A stretch of 64,000 bases of DNA from Camelus ferus (taxonomy: Eukaryota), in NCBI RefSeq assembly GCF_009834535.1, contig NC_045696.1, positions 69,814,001 through 69,878,000 on the forward strand. Direction: 5' to 3'. The notes under the pieces are model-generated. The model ran no database searches. It had not been told where the DNA came from and saw only the letters and a list, made by a program, of their open reading frames with translations. Positions 2,480-62,904 of this stretch are shown here, in pieces. Position numbers and translations under genes: made by a program. Numbering within the stretch: the stretch's first letter is position 1; every line of letters starts with the position of its first letter.

Positions 2480-4830
2480 TCTGACTTGTCTCAATTCCTG
2501 CTCTGCCCAGCCCTTGAAGACACTACCTTCAGAACAAATGTGGCTGTGAAGGCCAGCAGGGTTTACTTTTGGGAGATTCAGAGGGCTGTGGGAAATAGAG
2601 ACTCCATTCTTAAAGGGTGCACACAAAATCTCACATGCTCTGGAACCCAGGGCAGAAGCAGGCCCACCTGCTAATCTTGAAGAGTCTCCTAGAGAGGCAG
2701 GAGGCAACTGGAGCTCACTGTGGGGACAAAGACACTGGTGGCACCATTTTGGGGAGCTCCTTCTACCTCATGTTCACTGGTGCTGGCAAGCACCATTTTG
2801 GAATCCTCCCTCTAGCTTATTAGAGCTGGGACCCTTCCCTACCCACTAGCCTTTAGGCACCAGTATTGGGGCGCCTCAGGCCAAGCAACTAGCCAAGCAG
2901 AGACACAGTCCCATCTACCAGCAAGCCTGCTGCCTTAAGACTCCCTGAGCCCACAACCACTCCAAGACCCAGCTCTGTCTACCAGAGGGCCCAGGACCTG
3001 GCACTGAAGCCAGAGACCCTGGGGCTTGGCTCCACCAACCAGAGAGCCAGCACTAGCCCCAGGACCCAGCCTCACCCACCTGTGGGCAGACACCAGCCCC
3101 AGGATCCTCTGGACTCCTTCCCTGCCCACCAGCGGACAAATACCAGCTTCAAGACCACCAAAGCCCTGCAGCCTCCCATTCCAGGACCCAGTGCACCTAC
3201 CAGCAGGCCAACACCAGCTCTGGGATCCTCAGGGTCCTGCAGCCAGAGACCCAAAAACCCAGCTCCACCCACCAGTGAGCTGGCACTAGCCCCCAAACTC
3301 CCTGGACCTCAGCCCCATCTACCAGGAGGCTGGTATCAGTCCCAGGACACCTTAGACCCTTCAGCCAGCTGACCTGGGATCCAGCCCCATTCACCAGCGG
3401 GCCAACACCAACTTTGGTACACCTGGACCCCACAGCTAGCTGTGACAGGAGCTGGCCCCACCCACCAGCAGGCTGACACTGGATCTGTGATCACCAGCCC
3501 CACAAACAGCTACTTCAGAACCTGAATTCACCCATCAGTGGGAAAGCACTAGTTCTGGGACCCCCCCAGCAGCCTTGTGACCAGCCCCACCAAACAGTGG
3601 CCAGCAGCCTATGTACAAGGCAGGGCCTAGCTACCAACCAGACCGGGAGAGGGCAGCAACACTTACCAGACTGCCCACAGTAGTCAGCCTGCCACAACAG
3701 AAGGAGCCACGTATTCCATATAGGGGGGACCCTAGAACATACAGCTCTAGTGACCAGAGGGAGTGAGCTGCTGGAATGCACAGGATGTCCCCTACAAAAG
3801 GCCACTTCTCCAAGGTCAGGAAACGTAACCAACCTACCAGAGACATAGAAATAAAAACAACAAATTAGGCAAAATGAGGCAACAGAGGAATATCTTCCAA
3901 ATGAAGGAACAAGATAAAACCACAGAAGCAGAACTAAGTGAAGGTGAGAAAGGCAATCTACCTGATAAAGAGTTCAAGGTAATGAACATAGAGATGTTCA
4001 AAGAATTTGGGAGAAGACTGGATGAATAGAGTAAGAAGGTAGAATTTTTTTTATTGAAAAGTTAGAAAATATAAAGAACCAAACAGAGATGAGTAATTCA
4101 ATAACTGAAATGAAAAATACACTAGAAAGAATAAAAGTAGATTAAACGATACAGAGGAATGGATCAGCAAGCTTGAAGACAGAGTAGTAGAAACCAGAGC
4201 TGCTGAACGGAAAAAAGAAACAAAATAATAAAAAGAAATGAGGACAGTTTAAGACACCTCTTGGACAACACCAAATGTACCAACAATTGAATTATAGGAG
4301 ATCCAGGAAGAGGAGAGAGAAAGAAAGGGGCAGAGAACCTATTTGAAGATGTAATAGCTGAAAACTTCCCTAACCTGGGAAAGGAAACAGACATCCAAGT
4401 GCAAGAAGCATAGAGAGTCCCAAGCAGGATCAACTCAAAGAGGACCACATCAAGACACACTATAACTAAAATGGAAAAAATAAAGAGAGACTATTAAAAG
4501 CAACAAGGGAAAAGTAATGAGTTACATACAAGGGAATTCCCATAAGTCTATCAGCTGACTTTTCAGCAGAAACTCTACAGGCCAGAAGGGAGTGGCGAGA
4601 TATATTTAAAGTGATGAAAGGGAAAAACTTACAATCAAAAATACTTTATCCAGCAAGGCTCTCATTCAGATTTGATGGAGAAATTAAAAGCTTCACAGAT
4701 AAGCAAAAGCTAAAAGATTTCAGCACCACCAAACCAGCTTTACAACAAATTGTTAAAGGAAATTCTCTAGTCATCAAACCATAAGAGAACAAAAAGAAGA
4801 AAGGGAGAGAAAAAAAGACCTACAAAAGAT
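2480..4830 (+). mobile_element. LINE-1 5'UTR plus disrupted ORF1
   Basis: C-rich, CpG-decayed 5'UTR with internal repeats. ORF1 from ATG 3874 (MRQQRNIFQMKEQDKTTEAELSEGEKGNLPDKEFKV...) has stops and frameshifts, with typical L1 ORF1 motifs (gctgaaaacttccctaacctggg; tcagctgacttttcagcagaaactctacaggccagaagggagtgg). ORF1 ends ~4770. Confidence 0.9.
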
Positions 4831-5125
4831 TGCTTTGGCAGTTTGGGGTCTTTTATGGTCTCATATAAATTTTGGAATTGTTTGTTCTAGTTCTGTGAAA
4901 AACATCATGAGTATTTTGACAGGGGTTGCATTGGATCTGTAGATTGCTTTGGGTAGTACAGCCATTTTGATCATTTTGATTCTTCCAATCCAAGACCACA
5001 AGATATCTTTCCATTTCTTTGTATCACATTCAGTTTCCTTCATCAGTGTTTTACAGTTTTCAGAGTATAGGTAACCTCCTTGGTTAAGTTTATCTCTAGG
5101 TATTTTGTTGTTTTTGATGCAGTGG
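4828..5125 (-). mobile_element. LINE-1 ORF2 fragment (post-RT region)
   Basis: Minus-strand translation YSENCKTLMKETECDTKKWKDILWSWIGRIKMIKMAVLPKAIYRSNATPVKI is a classic L1 ORF2 segment. Confidence 0.9.
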
Positions 5126-5214
5126 AAATGTTTATGCCAGTTATCACATTCTGATTTTTGAAGTGAAAAGAAAAAAAAAGTGAACAAAGGGCTGGAAATG
5201 GTAAAATATCCTTT

Positions 5215-5365
5215 TCTTATGGGTGAGGTGTATTCCATTACATATATACGCTGCATCTTCTTTTTCCATTCATCTGTTGATGTGCACGTAGGGTGCTTCC
5301 ATATCTTGGCAATTATAAAGAATGTTGCTGTTAATAGTGGGCATATGTATCTTTTTTAATTAGTT
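5215..5365 (-). mobile_element. LINE-1 3'-end fragment
   Basis: tattccatt...ccattcatctgttgatg...gggtgcttccatatcttggcaattata is the reverse L1 ORF2-end/3'UTR motif. Confidence 0.75.
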
Positions 5366-35098: not shown

Positions 35099-35276
35099 AT
35101 GATGAACAAGCTTTACATCGGGAACCTGAGTCCTGCCGTCACCGCCGACGACCTCCGGCAGCTCTTCGGGGACAGGAAGCTGCCCCTGGCGGGACAGGTC
35201 CTGCTCAAGTCCGGCTACGCCTTCGTGGACTACCCCGACCAGAACTGGGCCATCCGCGCCATCGAGACCCTCTCGG
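35099..35276 (+). CDS. IGF2BP2: IGF2BP2 coding exon 1 (N-terminal part of RRM1)
   Basis: Translates [59 protein letters not shown](G), the IMP2 N-terminus with RNP2 (LYIGNL) and RNP1 (SGYAFVDY). 178 nt, ending at donor G|gtgagc (intron starts 35277), phase 1. Confidence 0.98.
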
Positions 35277-36838
35277 GTGAGCAGTCGGCGCTGTCCCCCT
35301 CCCCCTCGCCTCGCCCAGCTCAGGCCGGGACGGCGCCCGGAGGGAGGCCGAGCCCTGCGGGCGGCGCCCGGCGGGGGCTCCGGCGCCCGCACGCTCACTT
35401 CCACGCACCAGACCTTCAACTCTCACCGCCGGCCCGCTTCTGGGACGGCCCGCTCCCCTCCCCCCCAGCTCCGGACTCACCCCTTGCCCTCCGAGCCGCA
35501 GCCCTGGGGCGACCCCCGTGCGGCTCCGAGGGTCCCCGAGGCTCGCTGTCTTTCTGGGGGCACCATTCGTTCCTCTGGTCTCTGAGCTGCTCTCCAGAGT
35601 TCCCCCACCCCCATCCTTAGAGAGCCCCCGTCACCCCTTCTTCTCTGACCTTCTTGTCACCCCCTTTGTCAGGGGACCCCCCCCAATCCTGCTTCTCCTC
35701 CCTTGACCGGACCTTACCCCTTCCCGTGCCTCGTGCCCAGGACCTCTCGCCCTGTGGCGTCCCTTGAACCGCACTCTTTTTTCGAGCCCCCTCCCCAGCT
35801 CGCCCCGGGGTCCCCCACTTTTCGCACCCCCTCGGTGTCACCCCGATGATCCTTTCCGAGATTTCAGGGCTCCCCTAACCCCAGCCCCTGCACGACGGCA
35901 CATCTCTCTCGGTCCTCTCCCGAACCTCAGTCTCCTCTCGCTCGTCTCTCAAGCGCTCCTATTTTTCTCTGAATTTTTTGTCCGATTTTATTGAGAGGAA
36001 CTCGGAGCTGGGGGCTTTCCGCCGCCTGTGCCCCCGCCTCCCGCTCGGCCAGAAGCACCTTTTTACGAGGTACCCTGTCTCAACTCGGTGGGGGCCCGGG
36101 CTGAGAACCGAGAAAGAGGCGACCGGGGGGCCCGCGAGAGCGCTGGAGCCCAGACGGGAGACGGAGAGCGACACACACACACTCGCGCGCGCGCGCACTC
36201 ACCAACTCTCCCTCTCGCACACGCACCGCTCGGAGTCGCGCTCGCCCCCAGGCCACGAGCCGGCGCCCCCAGAACCTCCGACGGGCCACAGCCCCTTCCC
36301 CACTGGCGCGCGGGGTGGGGGCGGGGCGGCGGAGAGGCCAAGGTGACCAGAAGCCGGCAGGGACCGGGCTCTCGCAGAAACGGACCCCGGGGGGCTTCGG
36401 CGCGTTTCTTCGGGGCAACCCGGAGGAGAGGGCAAGGAGGGGAGCACAGTGGAGCCTTTGGGGCCCGGGTTAGCGGAATGGAGAGGTGGGGGCTGAGAGA
36501 AGAGGGGGGCCGCGCCAGCCCTGCAGCTTGAGTTTCAAATGAGCTCATCCTTTCAAATTGGCGCCGCTCTTTATTAAATTTGTTTTTCCGGTAATGCCAC
36601 CCACAGCCATACCTGGGGTCGGGATCGGGGCTCGCACCCTTAACACCTCGTCCCAGAACACGGGGCGCCCACCTTTCTTCCCACTGGGAACCAAGTTTGC
36701 CCAGCTTGAACCGGGTAGGAGACCCCTTGAGGGCGCCCGAAGGCGGAGTCGGAGCGTGGAGTTCTGTGCGTGCCCCTCCTAGACCCCCGCCCGTTTGATC
36801 TCGGGAAGGTTCTGAGTGCTTTAATTTCTGTTTTAAAG
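35277..36838 (+). other. IGF2BP2: IGF2BP2 intron 1 (GT-AG, CpG-rich)
   Basis: Bounded by gtgag at 35277 and aag ending at 36838. Confidence 0.95.
36011..36020 (+). promoter_or_regulatory. NF-kB consensus site next to an AT-rich tract (35960-35992)
   Basis: GGGGCTTTCC fits GGGRNNYYCC and lies just downstream of an A/T-run patch inside the CpG island. Confidence 0.55.
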
Positions 36839-36899
36839 GTAAAGTGGAATTGCATGGGAAAATCATGGAAGTTGATTACTCAGTCTCTAAAAAGCTCAG
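36839..36899 (+). CDS. IGF2BP2: IGF2BP2 exon 2 (rest of RRM1)
   Basis: Acceptor ttaatttctgttttaaag| and donor AG|gtaaat. 61 nt, continues the exon 1 frame as (G)[19 protein letters not shown](R) and ends in phase 2. Confidence 0.97.
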
Positions 36900-38984
36900 G
36901 TAAATATATTTTGCTTAGTTATTTTGTGATTGGGCTTACGTATAAATACAAAAATACACTCAGTTTTTAAAAATGTGCTTTTATAGTTTTTTAAAAAAAG
37001 GCTTTTGTTTGTTTTGTTAGTGGAGATGAAATAGTTTAGAAAGTTACATTTTTTACTTTCATTATATAAGGTGTTTACTGTACTTGGAAAATATCTGGTG
37101 CCTTATTGGGGGTTGGGGGTGGCGATCACTAGCTGTGTTAAATTCGCTGGGACCGTTTAACTTGTTTATGAAAACTTGCCTCCCCCACACCCCTACCCCC
37201 ACCCCTACCCCCAGCACAATGGCAACAAATGCTTGTCAAGACTTCCTGTGAGATGTTAAGAGTAAATATTTACTGTGTCAGCTAAATTGCTTAACTAAAC
37301 TTCGCGATTAATTAGTTTTCTTTTTTAGATGGGTTAATGTTGAATAATAAAATAATTCAGTAAGGGGTCGATATTTTGCATAGCACTTTAAACAAGTAGG
37401 TTGTTTGGATTGGATGGCAGTTAAAAGCCAGACTTTTTTTAGTCACTGAGACTACTGAATATTGCTTCTGAGCGTTGTGTTGTTGTTGTTGCTTTTAAGA
37501 TATGTTTGAGGCTAAACAAATATCACTGTGAAATCTATAATTATGTTTAAGTGCACTGTTGTTAATGAAGGAGTAAAAAGTTTTGTGGAGGTTGGATTTC
37601 TCCACAGTGATTTGCTTACATGAGAATGTCTATGAGGAGAGAATGAGGGAGAACATCTTTGTTTAAAGTTTATTGTGGACTTTAAATTTGGGCCCTTTAT
37701 TACTCATTCTAGATTTTTTTTCTCCTATGTGTCGTAATTTAGTTTATATCCCATTCACATACATTTCTTCACCATTAGTCATTAAGTAGCTGAATTGGAG
37801 ACTAAGTGAAGGAGCTTGACTTACCACCTTTACAATTTGTGATACTCAGTAATGTAACCATTTGCTTGATTTTTGCCAGGATTGAATAGATTTTAAAACA
37901 AACTATCCTAATTTCATAAATACATAGATGTTTTGTTAAAGGGGTTTTTAAAAATGTATGCACATTTCCAGATATGTTTTAACTAAGCAACAGAATATCT
38001 TTTGTTTGCCAATGATTCTGTGGCATATCAGAAAACTACTTAATACCTTTAAAAAAAGAGGTAAAAGTAATGATTTGCAGTTTCATGTGTAATACTAAGC
38101 TAGTTCTCTCTAGGAAAAGATGTAAAGTGTAACTGATTGGTTTTTCAATTAAGTATTTTAAATTTTATACTATAAAAAATTTTTTTTGGCTTGAGAAATC
38201 TAAGTTGAATCTTTCTGATATATTAAGTATTTATTGTAGGTTAAAATTATTACCTTATAACACTTGAATATTTGATGAATATATTGAACAGGGTTCTGAA
38301 GAACCACTCAAAATATTTGATGGGCTGTGTTTCTATAAATATCTAATTCGGTTGGCTATGTAGCTGTTTTGAGTTCTTTTTGGATTATAATTAGTAAAAA
38401 TCAGTAGAATTTTAACTTTGGTTAGTTGGTGTCTCATTTCATGTTGCTAAGTATGTTATTTAATATTGCAATGTAAGTGAAATACTAGTTTATCTAAAGT
38501 TATTAACATCTGAAACTTCTCATAAATAAACTACTTTTAAACTTTTTTCTTTCAAAATGTAGAGGTTATTTGCTTTTAGCTGGAATGTCATTTAAATAAT
38601 TTTGTTATGTTTATATAAGAGCTCAGAATTGAAAACTTGTCCTAAATTTTTAGCATTAATTAAATAGAAGCAATCTAGAACCTATACAGCCCTATTAGTA
38701 CATGATTTCTTTGAACATTGTGGGCGATATGAAATACCTAGGAGGTAGATTAAAATGCGCTGTGCATGATTCACTACACTGAAGACGTCTGACATACCAA
38801 ATGTATGCATAAGCTGCTGCTGTAGAGGGTTGCATCATTTCTGATTGGATGGTTTTAATCTTTTTTTCCTTTCCTTTATTAGTTTAAAATGCAGAAATTA
38901 GTTACTGGTACTGCAGGCTAAGGGAGAGATAGCTAATGACTAGTATTGTGTACTGAGCTCAGACTCCTGGGAGGAGGCAGCTGT

Positions 38985-39034
38985 ATGTTCTCATGTACAG
39001 GGCTCTACCACGGTGGGGACTCTCAAAAAGCAGG
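38985..39034 (+). CDS. IGF2BP2: Candidate alternative first coding exon of IGF2BP2 (short N-terminus lacking RRM1)
   Basis: ATG TTC TCA TGT ACA GGG CTC TAC CAC GGT GGG GAC TCT CAA AAA GCA GG|gtactg = MFSCTGLYHGGDSQKA(G). The phase-2 donor matches that of exon 2. It resembles a human alternative N-terminus that I recall as MFSCPGHYHVDGFLNPG (not verified here). Confidence 0.6.
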
Positions 39035-41440
39035 GTACTGTGACATTTGAAACCAAAGCTTTTATGTTACATGGTGACTATTTTGGTGTTCTTTTGTTGC
39101 ACTTCCATGAAAATTAACAAGTTAGAAGTACATTTGTCAGCGTTAAGTCAGTTTTATGTGTGGTTTTTTTGTTAGTTGAAGTGAAAATGTGAAGAAAACA
39201 GTTCATCCTCATTGCTTGCTTACTTAAAAAACCATTCCACAATTAGTGCTCATTTTCTTTATATTGTTCTGACTTCTTTCTGTTCTCAAGAATCAGTTTT
39301 AATATCTACATTCCAAATAGATTTTTTTAAGCTAATGGTACTTGGGAGGAGATGTTTTTATCTTAAGTTATGAAAATACTGGCATGCCATTTGCTTACCA
39401 ATTGGATCTTTTGTTAAATATCATTCTAGCATCATTTTATATGTGCTGTTATAGTAGACAGACCAGAAGTAGAAAACTTTTTTCTTTTGCCACATGTGCT
39501 TCATTCTTATTAAATGTAAATTATTGTAATGTAAACCATGTACAAACCATCTATTTTTTCTTACTTTCTAAGTTGGTTTCAGGCTCTGTTAAATAAAAAT
39601 CTTCAGATCTTTTTTCTCTATTCATATTTCTTGCTAGTATATATGAATCAAAGATTTCTTAAAGAAGAAAAAACTAAAAAGGGCTTTAAGAGTTGTGGAA
39701 ACTTCCTCGATCGAAATTCCATTTTTGATGTTGATGAGAGTTTGGTTAAAAAAAAATTATATATGTGTCTACACACATACACACACACATGCGTGTGCGC
39801 ACATACACATATTGTATAAATTGTTTTGAGTTGAGACATATACTAACCTGAATGTGCTTTTATAACCAAAGTTGAATGATTCTGTGAGAAACAAAACTTT
39901 GAAAAATGCAATTTCTGCCCACTTCTAGGAAGTAACTAAGTGGTGCTAGACATGCTTTCACTGAGATGGTGAGAATACTATGAGGTAGTGTAGGAAAAAG
40001 CTATGAATTTGTCTTTCATGAGTTAAAAATCAGTAATTGTCTTCTCTCCAATGCAAATGAATTTGGTCTCCTATAGGAATGTTAAAGAAAACAGTATCTC
40101 AATTGTATTTTGCTTGTATGTACTACATTGTGTATAGTTGAATTAAATACCAAAACAAAACAAAACAAAACAAAAACAAAAACCCAACAACCACCCAACC
40201 TCAAGTCCTCCCTGCAACAAAGACTTTTAGTGCATCAATTTTTAATTTTGTAGCAACAGAAAAGACTTTATTAGGTTAAAATCGTATGGTAGTCTCCTAT
40301 TTCAAGAATTTGTTGAATTAGAAATTAATGTCTGGATTTAATTAGATGGATTCCATGTGTGGATATAGTATGTATATTTATATATACATATCTCTCTCTC
40401 AAACTCTAAGGTTACTTTTCATTTGGCTTTTAGTTAGACATTTAGTTTCCCATTTTAAAAAAGGCTAATAGTTTTTTCATATGGTTCTAGGTAATGCCAT
40501 AGAAAATTACATGTTTTTGTGACCTTTAAGAGCTAAGTATTAAAATTAAAATAGAAGCAATAAAGAAAAAAATTACTTGATAATTCAGATTTAAATTCTA
40601 GTTTGCATTTTAAAAGGCAGATTATTTGATGCTTTTACATTATTTAGTTAAATTTTGAAAAACCATTGAAATCTATACAGCAAAATAGATATATACTGCT
40701 TGATTTTTTCCAATTTGCCAAATTCATATCAATTTTAAATTATAGTGATTTATAAAAGTATTAAATGGCTAAACATCTAAACATTAATTCTAAAAGGTGA
40801 TTTGGTGATATGTAATACATTTGCCGAATTGTGGTTTTTTTTTTTTTTTTTTTTAATTATGTTTCTTTGTTATTATGGCTGGGTATAAGATAACCAGTAA
40901 GAGATGGTCTCATAGTTTTGTTTTCTATTATGTTAACCTGAGACTATCATTCATATAGAGAAGATGAAAGAAGATTAGTAATATTTGTACAACACCTTTT
41001 ATATGTAATGATCTAAAGTGCAATATTTTCCTCAAGAAGAAAAAATTTTAAAGGACATTGGAAGATTTAGAACTAATTGCATATCAAAATCAACATTTCA
41101 CTATTATTTTGAGTAAATATTTTTATTTTATGGAGATTCCTCCAATTTTTCATTTGGGGGTATGTAAATGACATTGAAATGTACATAAAAGGATAGTAAT
41201 TTGGACAGATTTATTAAAAGTCAAGAAAGCTGTGACAATCATATTTCTATAAGAACTATTTATAAATATTTGATACTTTCAACTTTTAAAATATTTGCTC
41301 GCTACTGCTGAATCATTCTTCCAAGTCTGCTAATAAAATCCTCAAAAGTAGATGAGTGATTGGTCAGAATTGTTAGAGGACATTATCTGAGCTAAATGTA
41401 TCATCTCTGATTCAGTGGAGTGTGTACACATAGGGGAGGG

Positions 41441-52337: not shown

Positions 52338-52490
52338 GGGGGGAGGGTATAGCTCAGTGATTGAATGCATGCTTAGCATGCATGAAGTCCTGGGTTCAGT
52401 CCCCAGTACCTCCTCTAAAAATAAACCTAATTATCTTGCCCGCAAAAAAAAAAAAAAAGAAAGAAAAAAGAAATAATAAATAAATGAAAT
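52338..52490 (+). mobile_element. tRNA-derived SINE (Vic-1-like) in an L1 tail
   Basis: ggggggagggtatagctcagtgattgaatgcatgcttagcatgcatgaagtcctgggttcagtccccagtacctcc plus a long A tail. Confidence 0.9.
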
Positions 52491-54041: not shown

Positions 54042-54162
54042 CTTTTTTGGGGAGGAGGTTTATGTATTTATTTACTTATCTTTAGTGGAGGTACTAGGGA
54101 CTGAACCCAGGGCCTTGTGCATGATAGGCAGGTGTTCTACCATTGAGCTATCCCCTCCCTCC
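54042..54162 (-). mobile_element. tRNA-derived SINE (Vic-1-like)
   Basis: ggaggtactagggactgaacccagggccttgtgcatgataggcaggtgttctaccattgagctatcccctccc is the reverse complement of the same SINE. Confidence 0.88.
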
Positions 54163-59864: not shown

Positions 59865-59951
59865 GGTTATCACCCATCTCTCCACAGCCCTGTGGGGCAA
59901 GTGCTGGCAACCTCATTCCTCAAAAGAGGAGCCTGGCTTCAGGGAAGTTGC
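59865..59951 (+). repeat. 87-bp dispersed direct repeat, copy 1
   Basis: Matches 60619-60705 at 85 of 87 positions. Confidence 0.92.
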
Positions 59952-62797: not shown

Positions 62798-62904
62798 GTG
62801 GGGAGGGTATAGCTCAGTGGTAGAGTACGTGCCTAGCACGGGCAAGGTCCTGGGTTCAATCCCCAGTACCTCCATTTAAAAAGAAAAAGGAAAGAAGAAA
62901 GTAA
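62798..62904 (+). mobile_element. tRNA-derived SINE (Vic-1-like) with perfect TSD
   Basis: ggggagggtatagctcagtggtagagtacgtgcctagcacgggcaaggtcctgggttcaatccccagtacctcc plus an A-rich tail. 14-bp TSD tatagttattcaga at 62784-62797 and 62905-62918. Confidence 0.93.

What the first reader, a model, noticed from the sequence alone, without database searches (positions are those of the whole stretch)
38985..39040. Hidden alternative first coding exon of IGF2BP2 in intron 2 (RRM1-less isoform)
Seen: about 2.1 kb after exon 2, a GC-richer patch in AT-rich intron reads ATG...MFSCTGLYHGGDSQKA-GG|gtactg. The donor is in phase 2, like the exon 2 donor, so it would join exon 3 in frame and replace RRM1 with about 17 residues. 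An inverted CCAAT (ATTGG, 38844-38848) lies ~140 bp upstream. From memory (unverified): a human IGF2BP2 transcript starts at a similar distance with MFSCPGHYHVDGFLNPG, the same length and phase. Inference: start codon, length and donor have been kept between primates and camelids while the peptide has drifted, which suggests selection on the isoform rather than on its residues. It is too short to appear in the ORF track.
Basis: partly seen in the sequence, partly recalled or inferred. Interest (0 to 1): 0.7.

Follow-up and report, generated by a model that had tools for sequence, protein, structure and literature searches.

The report
Known minor IGF2BP2 alternative start exon
This short stretch inside intron 2 of the RNA-binding-protein gene IGF2BP2 is the counterpart of a minor alternative start exon already catalogued in humans, but its reading frame appears to have slipped in other mammals, so it looks like an ordinary, weakly constrained exon rather than a hidden essential protein form.

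Summary
In detail: ATG 38985, 16 codons, GG|GTACTG, phase 2 like exon 2. It is the orthologue of the first exon of human RefSeq variants 4-7 (NP_001278803.1, UniProt isoform 5): same place within about 13 nt, 8-11 of 17 residues shared with primates. So it is real and already known. The claim that start, length and frame are kept by selection is not supported. All 13 records with this frame among 377 proteins held are primate. RefSeq models from yak and walrus use the same stretch and donor in the other two frames, which needs a 1-nt loss and a 1-nt gain beside the donor (inferred from peptides). The ATG context is poor, the donor weak, human blood expression at the assay floor, and an RRM1-less protein already arises from Met69. 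New here: the best pyrimidine-tract acceptor in 27 kb lies at 38882, so the exon may also act as a 152-nt internal exon with an early stop. Splicing in this species is untested. The scan has no earlier IGF2BP2 note.

The parts
35099..35276 (+). IGF2BP2 exon 1, coding part (first 59 residues of RRM1)
   Evidence: identical over residues 2-59 to human IGF2BP2 chain 2cqh_A; GT donor at 35277
36839..36899 (+). IGF2BP2 exon 2 (61 nt; cumulative phase 2); holds Met69
   Evidence: translation matches residues 61-79 of P0108; AG|..|GT ends
36865..36867 (+). Met69 ATG, strong context (-3 A, +4 G): start of the published RRM1-less p58
   Evidence: PMC3299737 section 7
38841..38859 (+). Two branch-point-like motifs (38841-38845, 38855-38859); the first overlaps the inverted CCAAT at 38844-38848
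   Evidence: sequence; branch consensus recalled; CCAAT 3 of 4 flank matches, as 9 of 32 in the intron part
38860..38882 (+). Polypyrimidine tract and TAG: candidate 3' splice site
   Evidence: 19 of 20 pyrimidines; top of 269 YAG sites without an upstream AG, among 1851 AG in 27 kb; exon 2 acceptor has 14 of 20
38883..39034 (+). Exon if used internally: 152 nt, stop codon at 38899-38901 after exon 2
   Evidence: use not shown
38915..39034 (+). Approximate extent of the orthologue of the human first exon of variants 4-7 (about 120 nt: about 70 UTR + 50 coding)
   Evidence: inferred from transcript starts and lengths in the PMC6365563 supplement and the 79-nt canonical UTR in PMC3299737
38985..39034 (+). 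Coding part in the primate frame, in phase with exon 3; ATG context poor (-3 T, +4 T)
38993..38995 (+). Second ATG, out of frame with exon 3 here; it is the start used by the yak model
   Evidence: P0234 matches 11 of 14 residues in this frame
39035..39040 (+). 5' splice donor AGG|GTACTG, weak
   Evidence: 4 of 11 matches to the U1 consensus against 7 and 10 for exons 1 and 2; 1167 of 1612 intronic GT score as well; position fixed by primate, yak and walrus models

Best explanation
The stretch is the orthologue of the minor alternative 5' exon of human IGF2BP2 variants 4-7. Mechanism: occasional transcription from a weak, TATA-less, non-CpG start about 3.9 kb downstream of the main CpG-island promoter; the roughly 120-nt exon is spliced from its weak donor at 39034 to exon 3; ribosomes that start at the poor-context ATG 38985 make a protein with 17 new residues, RRM2 and four KH domains (about 493-542 aa), nearly the same product as p58 from Met69. 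The exon and donor position are old (primates, yak, walrus, this genome), but which ATG is in frame changes by lineage, so the element is at most a weakly constrained minor start, not a coding exon kept for its product. Shown: position, homology, phase, human annotation as first exon. Inferred: frameshifts in yak and walrus, weak output. Not shown: any transcription, splicing or translation in this species.
For: Human record NP_001278803.1 isoform f / UniProt isoform 5 / ACB86627.1 begins with the 17-residue peptide and continues into exon 3; it has one RRM match instead of two. All four human variants 4-7 start at chr3:185,821,132, 3908 nt from the canonical start; the mapped distance here is about 3895 nt. 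A primer labelled '1st' exon in that supplement aligns by eye to 38999-39021 at 16 of 23 bases. Yak P0234 needs a 1-nt loss at about 39030 (then 1 substitution) and walrus P0235 a 1-nt gain (best in or next to the A run 39025-39031, or near 39016) to reach the same donor in their frames. 13 of 13 MFSC-frame records are primate. Human blood qPCR for the variant 4-7 amplicon: median RQ 0.0106 in all groups, variant 4 not expressed (PMC6365563 Table 3). Weak donor and ATG context. No TATA-like box in 38700-38990; CpG o/e 0.12.
Against: No RNA evidence from this species. The frameshifts rest on two predicted peptides and sit at an A run, where assembly errors are common. Primate models keep M-F-S-C, length and phase in all 13 records, and this genome shares that frame; neutral retention came out at only 1.4-18% under assumed rates. 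Non-primate MFSC-frame forms may hide among unseen cluster members (15 of 249 listed). The same paper's variant-7 assay gave RQ about 3.9, as high as total IGF2BP2, and its RNA-seq assigned reads to variants 4-7, although that assay has no primer in the first exon. The strong acceptor at 38882 is not explained by a pure first exon.
Confidence: 0.5

Rival explanations
1. Hybrid or mainly internal poison exon: exon 2 is spliced to the acceptor at 38882, the 152-nt exon brings a stop five codons later (38899-38901, 133 nt before the next junction), and the message is degraded by NMD or gives an 85-residue RRM1-only peptide. The human 5' ends about 30 nt inside the exon would be hybrid starts or incomplete cDNAs.
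For: Best pyrimidine-tract YAG in 27 kb, with two branch-like motifs 24 and 38 nt upstream. Frame lability in yak and walrus is what a non-coding cassette allows. Hybrid first-internal exons keep strong 3' splice sites and start near them (abstract and one passage of PMC11797052; IGF2BP2 is not named in its main text).
Against: Human RefSeq variants 4-7 all start inside this exon and lack exons 1 and 2. The donor is weak. Conservation of the acceptor in other species was not testable. Regulated poison exons are usually far more conserved than the roughly 70% seen against human (recalled). A T-rich tract in AT-rich intron can rank first by chance.
Confidence: 0.2
2. Unused remnant in this species: the sequence is alignable intron that kept ATG and GT by chance, and is not spliced here.
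For: Donor no better than 72% of intronic GT sites; no MFSC-frame record for alpaca or camel among the proteins seen; neutral retention up to 18%.
Against: Models in three distant lineages end at this very donor; a strong acceptor, GC-richer body and donor together look like an exon.
Confidence: 0.18
3. One reading: a coding first exon kept by selection because the RRM1-less isoform from an independent promoter has a function, the peptide being free to drift.
For: Same ATG, length and phase in primates and this genome; yak and walrus models still give an in-frame RRM1-less protein from another ATG, although models without an in-frame ATG would not have been found this way; a truncated IGF2BP1 is reported to be functional in breast cells (one citing sentence in PMC10039515).
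Against: Frame differs in 2 of 2 non-primate models found; poor ATG context; weak donor; floor-level expression in human blood; p58 from Met69 already supplies an RRM1-less form in human and rodents.
Confidence: 0.12

Closest known systems
Human IGF2BP2 RefSeq variants 4-7 (NM_001291872-875); isoform f NP_001278803.1 = UniProt isoform 5
   Same: Same position in intron 2, same 17-residue length, same donor phase, 8 of 17 residues identical (11 of 17 for lemurs and tarsier); loses RRM1.
   Different: Human use is documented as cDNA; use here is untested. Function of the human isoforms was not found described in searches.
Yak XP_005903441.1 and walrus XP_012420080.1 IGF2BP2 models
   Same: Same stretch and donor, joined to exon 3.
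   Different: Read in the other two frames from other ATGs; predicted models only.
IGF2BP2 p58 (Met69 leaky scanning; PMC3299737)
   Same: RRM1-less protein of almost the same size (531/488 aa against 536/493 aa); Met69 is intact here in strong context.
   Different: Made from the canonical mRNA by translation, no second promoter; shown on blots in human and rodents. 23 of 377 proteins held start at Met69.
Hybrid first-internal exons (PMC11797052)
   Same: Exon with a strong 3' splice site and an annotated start just inside it.
   Different: Dual use is not shown for this exon.
N-terminally truncated IGF2BP1/CRD-BP (Fakhraldeen 2015)
   Same: Short isoform of a paralogue lacking the N-terminal part (citing sentence and title only).
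   Different: Paper not read; its origin from an intronic promoter is recalled; no homology tested.

Membership tests
Orthologue of the human IGF2BP2 variant 4-7 first exon | Same position relative to the canonical start and exon 2 | tested here: met
   3908 nt in human, about 3895 nt here
Orthologue of the human IGF2BP2 variant 4-7 first exon | Sequence homology beyond chance | tested here: met
   best hit in 27 kb; 0 of 300 shuffles for lemur, tarsier, yak, walrus; 4 of 300 for human
Orthologue of the human IGF2BP2 variant 4-7 first exon | ATG and GT donor 50 nt apart, phase 2 | tested here: met
Functional alternative first exon in this species | Capped 5' ends at the exon | not testable with these tools
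   no CAGE or 5'RACE data; human annotation only
Functional alternative first exon in this species | Junction reads from 39034 to exon 3 | not tested
   runs holding the stretch exist but no read alignment was obtained
Coding exon under purifying selection | Reading frame and start kept across mammals | tested here: not met
   yak and walrus models in other frames; peptide-level inference, assembly error not excluded
Coding exon under purifying selection | Coding part better conserved than flank, in its own frame | tested here: not met
Hybrid or poison exon | Strong 3' splice site upstream | tested here: met
   19 of 20 pyrimidines, rank 1 of 269; crude score
Hybrid or poison exon | Stop more than 50 nt before the next junction on inclusion | tested here: met
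   stop 38899-38901, 133 nt before 39034
Hybrid or poison exon | Upstream junction reads and NMD sensitivity | not tested
   no RNA data obtained

The most novel reading that the evidence does not exclude
The exon is a hybrid switch in IGF2BP2 intron 2: included after exon 2 it poisons the full-length message, used as a start it gives an RRM1-less protein from whichever ATG a lineage has in frame. It would be an undescribed way to tune the dose of a type 2 diabetes and cancer RNA-binding protein, possibly by feedback.
Probability: 0.15. Interest if true: 0.45.

Novelty: already known. Interest (0 to 1): 0.15.

Why it matters
Little as it stands: it extends a catalogued human minor exon to another mammal. 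Two points are of modest use. The frame changes between lineages argue that human isoforms d-g are not kept for their N-terminus. And the product would be about the same size as p58, so blots cannot separate the two sources of RRM1-less IGF2BP2. If the upstream acceptor is used, the exon would be a testable NMD switch in an intron whose variants are tied to type 2 diabetes risk (PMC3299737, introduction passage).

Tried and rejected
No whole genome is held for this window, so exon 3 and flanking DNA could not be read. Orthologous DNA: a motif scan of metagenome contigs gave 0 matches; an exon 1 scan gave one 40%-identity locus that is not IGF2BP2-like. A search of 1.84 billion representatives with the 36-residue open frame around the exon gave one chance bacterial Ig-like hit. 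Public runs hold the stretch (20 of 24 rows, 4 on record as RNA) but were not aligned, so they are no evidence. Rfam found only tRNA-like matches far from the exon; no tandem repeat at the exon. The promoter scan is for bacteria and was disregarded. CCAAT as promoter evidence: weak, since 9 of 32 boxes score as well and the motif doubles as a branch-point-like site. Downstream GT at 39074 fits U1 better by eye but lies past stops in the MFSC frame, so it cannot give this protein. Chance ORF with no homology: rejected. Earlier scan notes: the word igf2bp2 met none, no look-alike stretch. The 2015 CRD-BP paper is not held, so its details are unread.

Full report
Setting. The window holds the 5' end of a mammalian IGF2BP2 gene. 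The exon 1 peptide is identical to human IGF2BP2 RRM1. Exon 1 codes from 35099 to 35276, exon 2 is 36839-36899, and together they end in phase 2 (one search had exon 2 one base off). Exon 3 is outside the window and no genome is held.

Observation. ATG 38985, 16 codons, GG, then GTACTG, in a patch of 52-54% GC. All as stated. The bare pattern is common: 25 such ATG-to-phase-2-donor pairs in 27.1 kb. The CCAAT is there but 9 of 32 in the intron part are as good.

Homology. Searches with exon 3-4 residues and then with a lemur N-terminus (best 120 of 1749 and of 1085 hits listed) and cluster look-ups gave IGF2BP2 records whose first 17 residues replace exons 1-2. One is human NP_001278803.1 isoform f, UniProt isoform 5, GenBank ACB86627.1. 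They share 8-11 of 17 residues with the window peptide, and their best match in 27 kb is at 38985. The supplement of PMC6365563 (passages read) lists human variants 4-7 as starting at chr3:185,821,132 against 185,825,040 for variants 1-3, places primers in their '1st' exon, and gives lengths 198 nt below their canonical partners (my pairing). With the 79-nt canonical UTR of PMC3299737 the human first exon is about 120 nt and maps to about 38915-39034, within about 13 nt of the expected distance. The isoform has one RRM match instead of two. So the exon is real and catalogued.

Frame is not kept. Of 377 proteins held, 13 start with the MFSC frame and all are primate; after the eight top hits the score falls from 63 to 47 bits. 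Two non-primate models map to the same stretch and donor in other frames: yak XP_005903441.1 starts at the second ATG (38993; 11 of 14 residues) and needs one base fewer, best at 39030; walrus XP_012420080.1 reads the third frame from 38929, where this genome has ATA and an in-frame stop, and needs one base more. A colobus model reads the second frame across the junction into the shifted frame of exon 3, which fixes the junction position. Walrus similarity is 14 of 19 codons before the ATG and 10 of 16 after it, so conservation is at DNA level and ignores frame. Limits: these are predicted peptides, the indels lie at an A run where assemblies err, only 15 of 249 members of the largest cluster were seen, and primate models may be projections of the human record. 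That range is not low enough to demand selection when the two other non-primate lineages seen differ.

Signals are weak. ATG 38985 has T at -3 and +4; the donor has 4 of 11 matches to the U1 consensus, reached by 1167 of 1612 intronic GT sites; exons 1 and 2 have 7 and 10 (consensus recalled, crude score). No TATA-like box, CpG o/e 0.12. In human blood the amplicon shared by variants 4-7 had median RQ 0.0106 and variant 4 was not detected, against about 3.1 for the total assay; against this, the variant-7 assay, which has no first-exon primer, gave about 3.9 (PMC6365563, passages). An RRM1-less protein is already made from Met69 by leaky scanning in human and rodents (PMC3299737, sections 7 and 9 and passages); Met69 is intact here in strong context, and 23 of 377 records start there.

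A missed feature. At 38860-38882 lies the best pyrimidine tract plus YAG in the 27 kb (19 of 20; first of 269), with branch-like motifs 24 and 38 nt upstream, one of them overlapping the CCAAT. Used after exon 2 it gives a 152-nt exon with a stop at 38899-38901, 133 nt before the next junction, which by the usual rule triggers NMD. The human annotated start falls about 30 nt inside. That is the anatomy of a hybrid first-internal exon (PMC11797052, abstract and one passage; IGF2BP2 not named there). Internal use is not shown.

Mechanism. Most likely (0.5): a minor downstream start, spliced through a weak donor to exon 3, giving a little RRM1-less IGF2BP2 that duplicates p58, with no constraint on frame. 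Rivals: mainly internal poison or hybrid exon (0.2), unused remnant here (0.18), selected coding first exon (0.12). No RNA alignment was obtained for this species, so every step of expression here is inferred from orthologues.

Literature. Ten searches of the open library found no functional study of this exon; subscription journals are mostly outside the library, and the 2015 CRD-BP paper was seen only as a title and one citing sentence (PMC10039515). Other papers were seen as search listings only. Supplements of the hybrid-exon papers, which may list this exon, were not read.

Verdict. Observation confirmed, orthology to a known human exon shown, selection on the isoform not supported. Already known; interest 0.15.

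Noticed in passing
window 59888-59945: A porpoise RefSeq in-frame insert between exons 2 and 3 (P0045, P0049, P0372) matches here, just after an acceptor-like pyrimidine-AG ending at 59887; no matching donor was identified in this genome.
   Followed up: partly
window 36854-36899: An out-of-frame ATG in exon 2 gives the same first residues as a whale IGF2BP2 model (P0208), which rejoins the frame through another intron 2 segment.
   Followed up: no
proteins P0322, P0324, P0326, P0327, P0330, P0332, P0355: Whale, mole, panda, anteater and bat models carry other short N-termini joined to exon 3; those long enough to test (P0324, P0330, P0355) did not map to this part of intron 2. Lineage-specific starts before exon 3 are common in annotation.
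   Followed up: partly
window 38972-39034: A colobus model (P0328) starts at an ATG about 13 nt upstream of the MFSC ATG, in another frame; this genome has AGG there. In those primates it would be an overlapping upstream ORF.
   Followed up: partly
window 38889-38921 and 38936-38956: Two short upstream ORFs (10 and 6 codons) precede the MFSC ATG; the second lies within the mapped first exon.
   Followed up: no
window 52343-52414, 54086-54157, 62803-62874: Three tRNA-like matches in intron 2, two called tRNA-Ala; probably heads of tRNA-derived SINEs (SINE reading is inference).
   Followed up: no
window 3874-5256: ORF fragments that resemble LINE-1 ORF1 and ORF2 pieces (resemblance recalled, not tested).
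   Followed up: no
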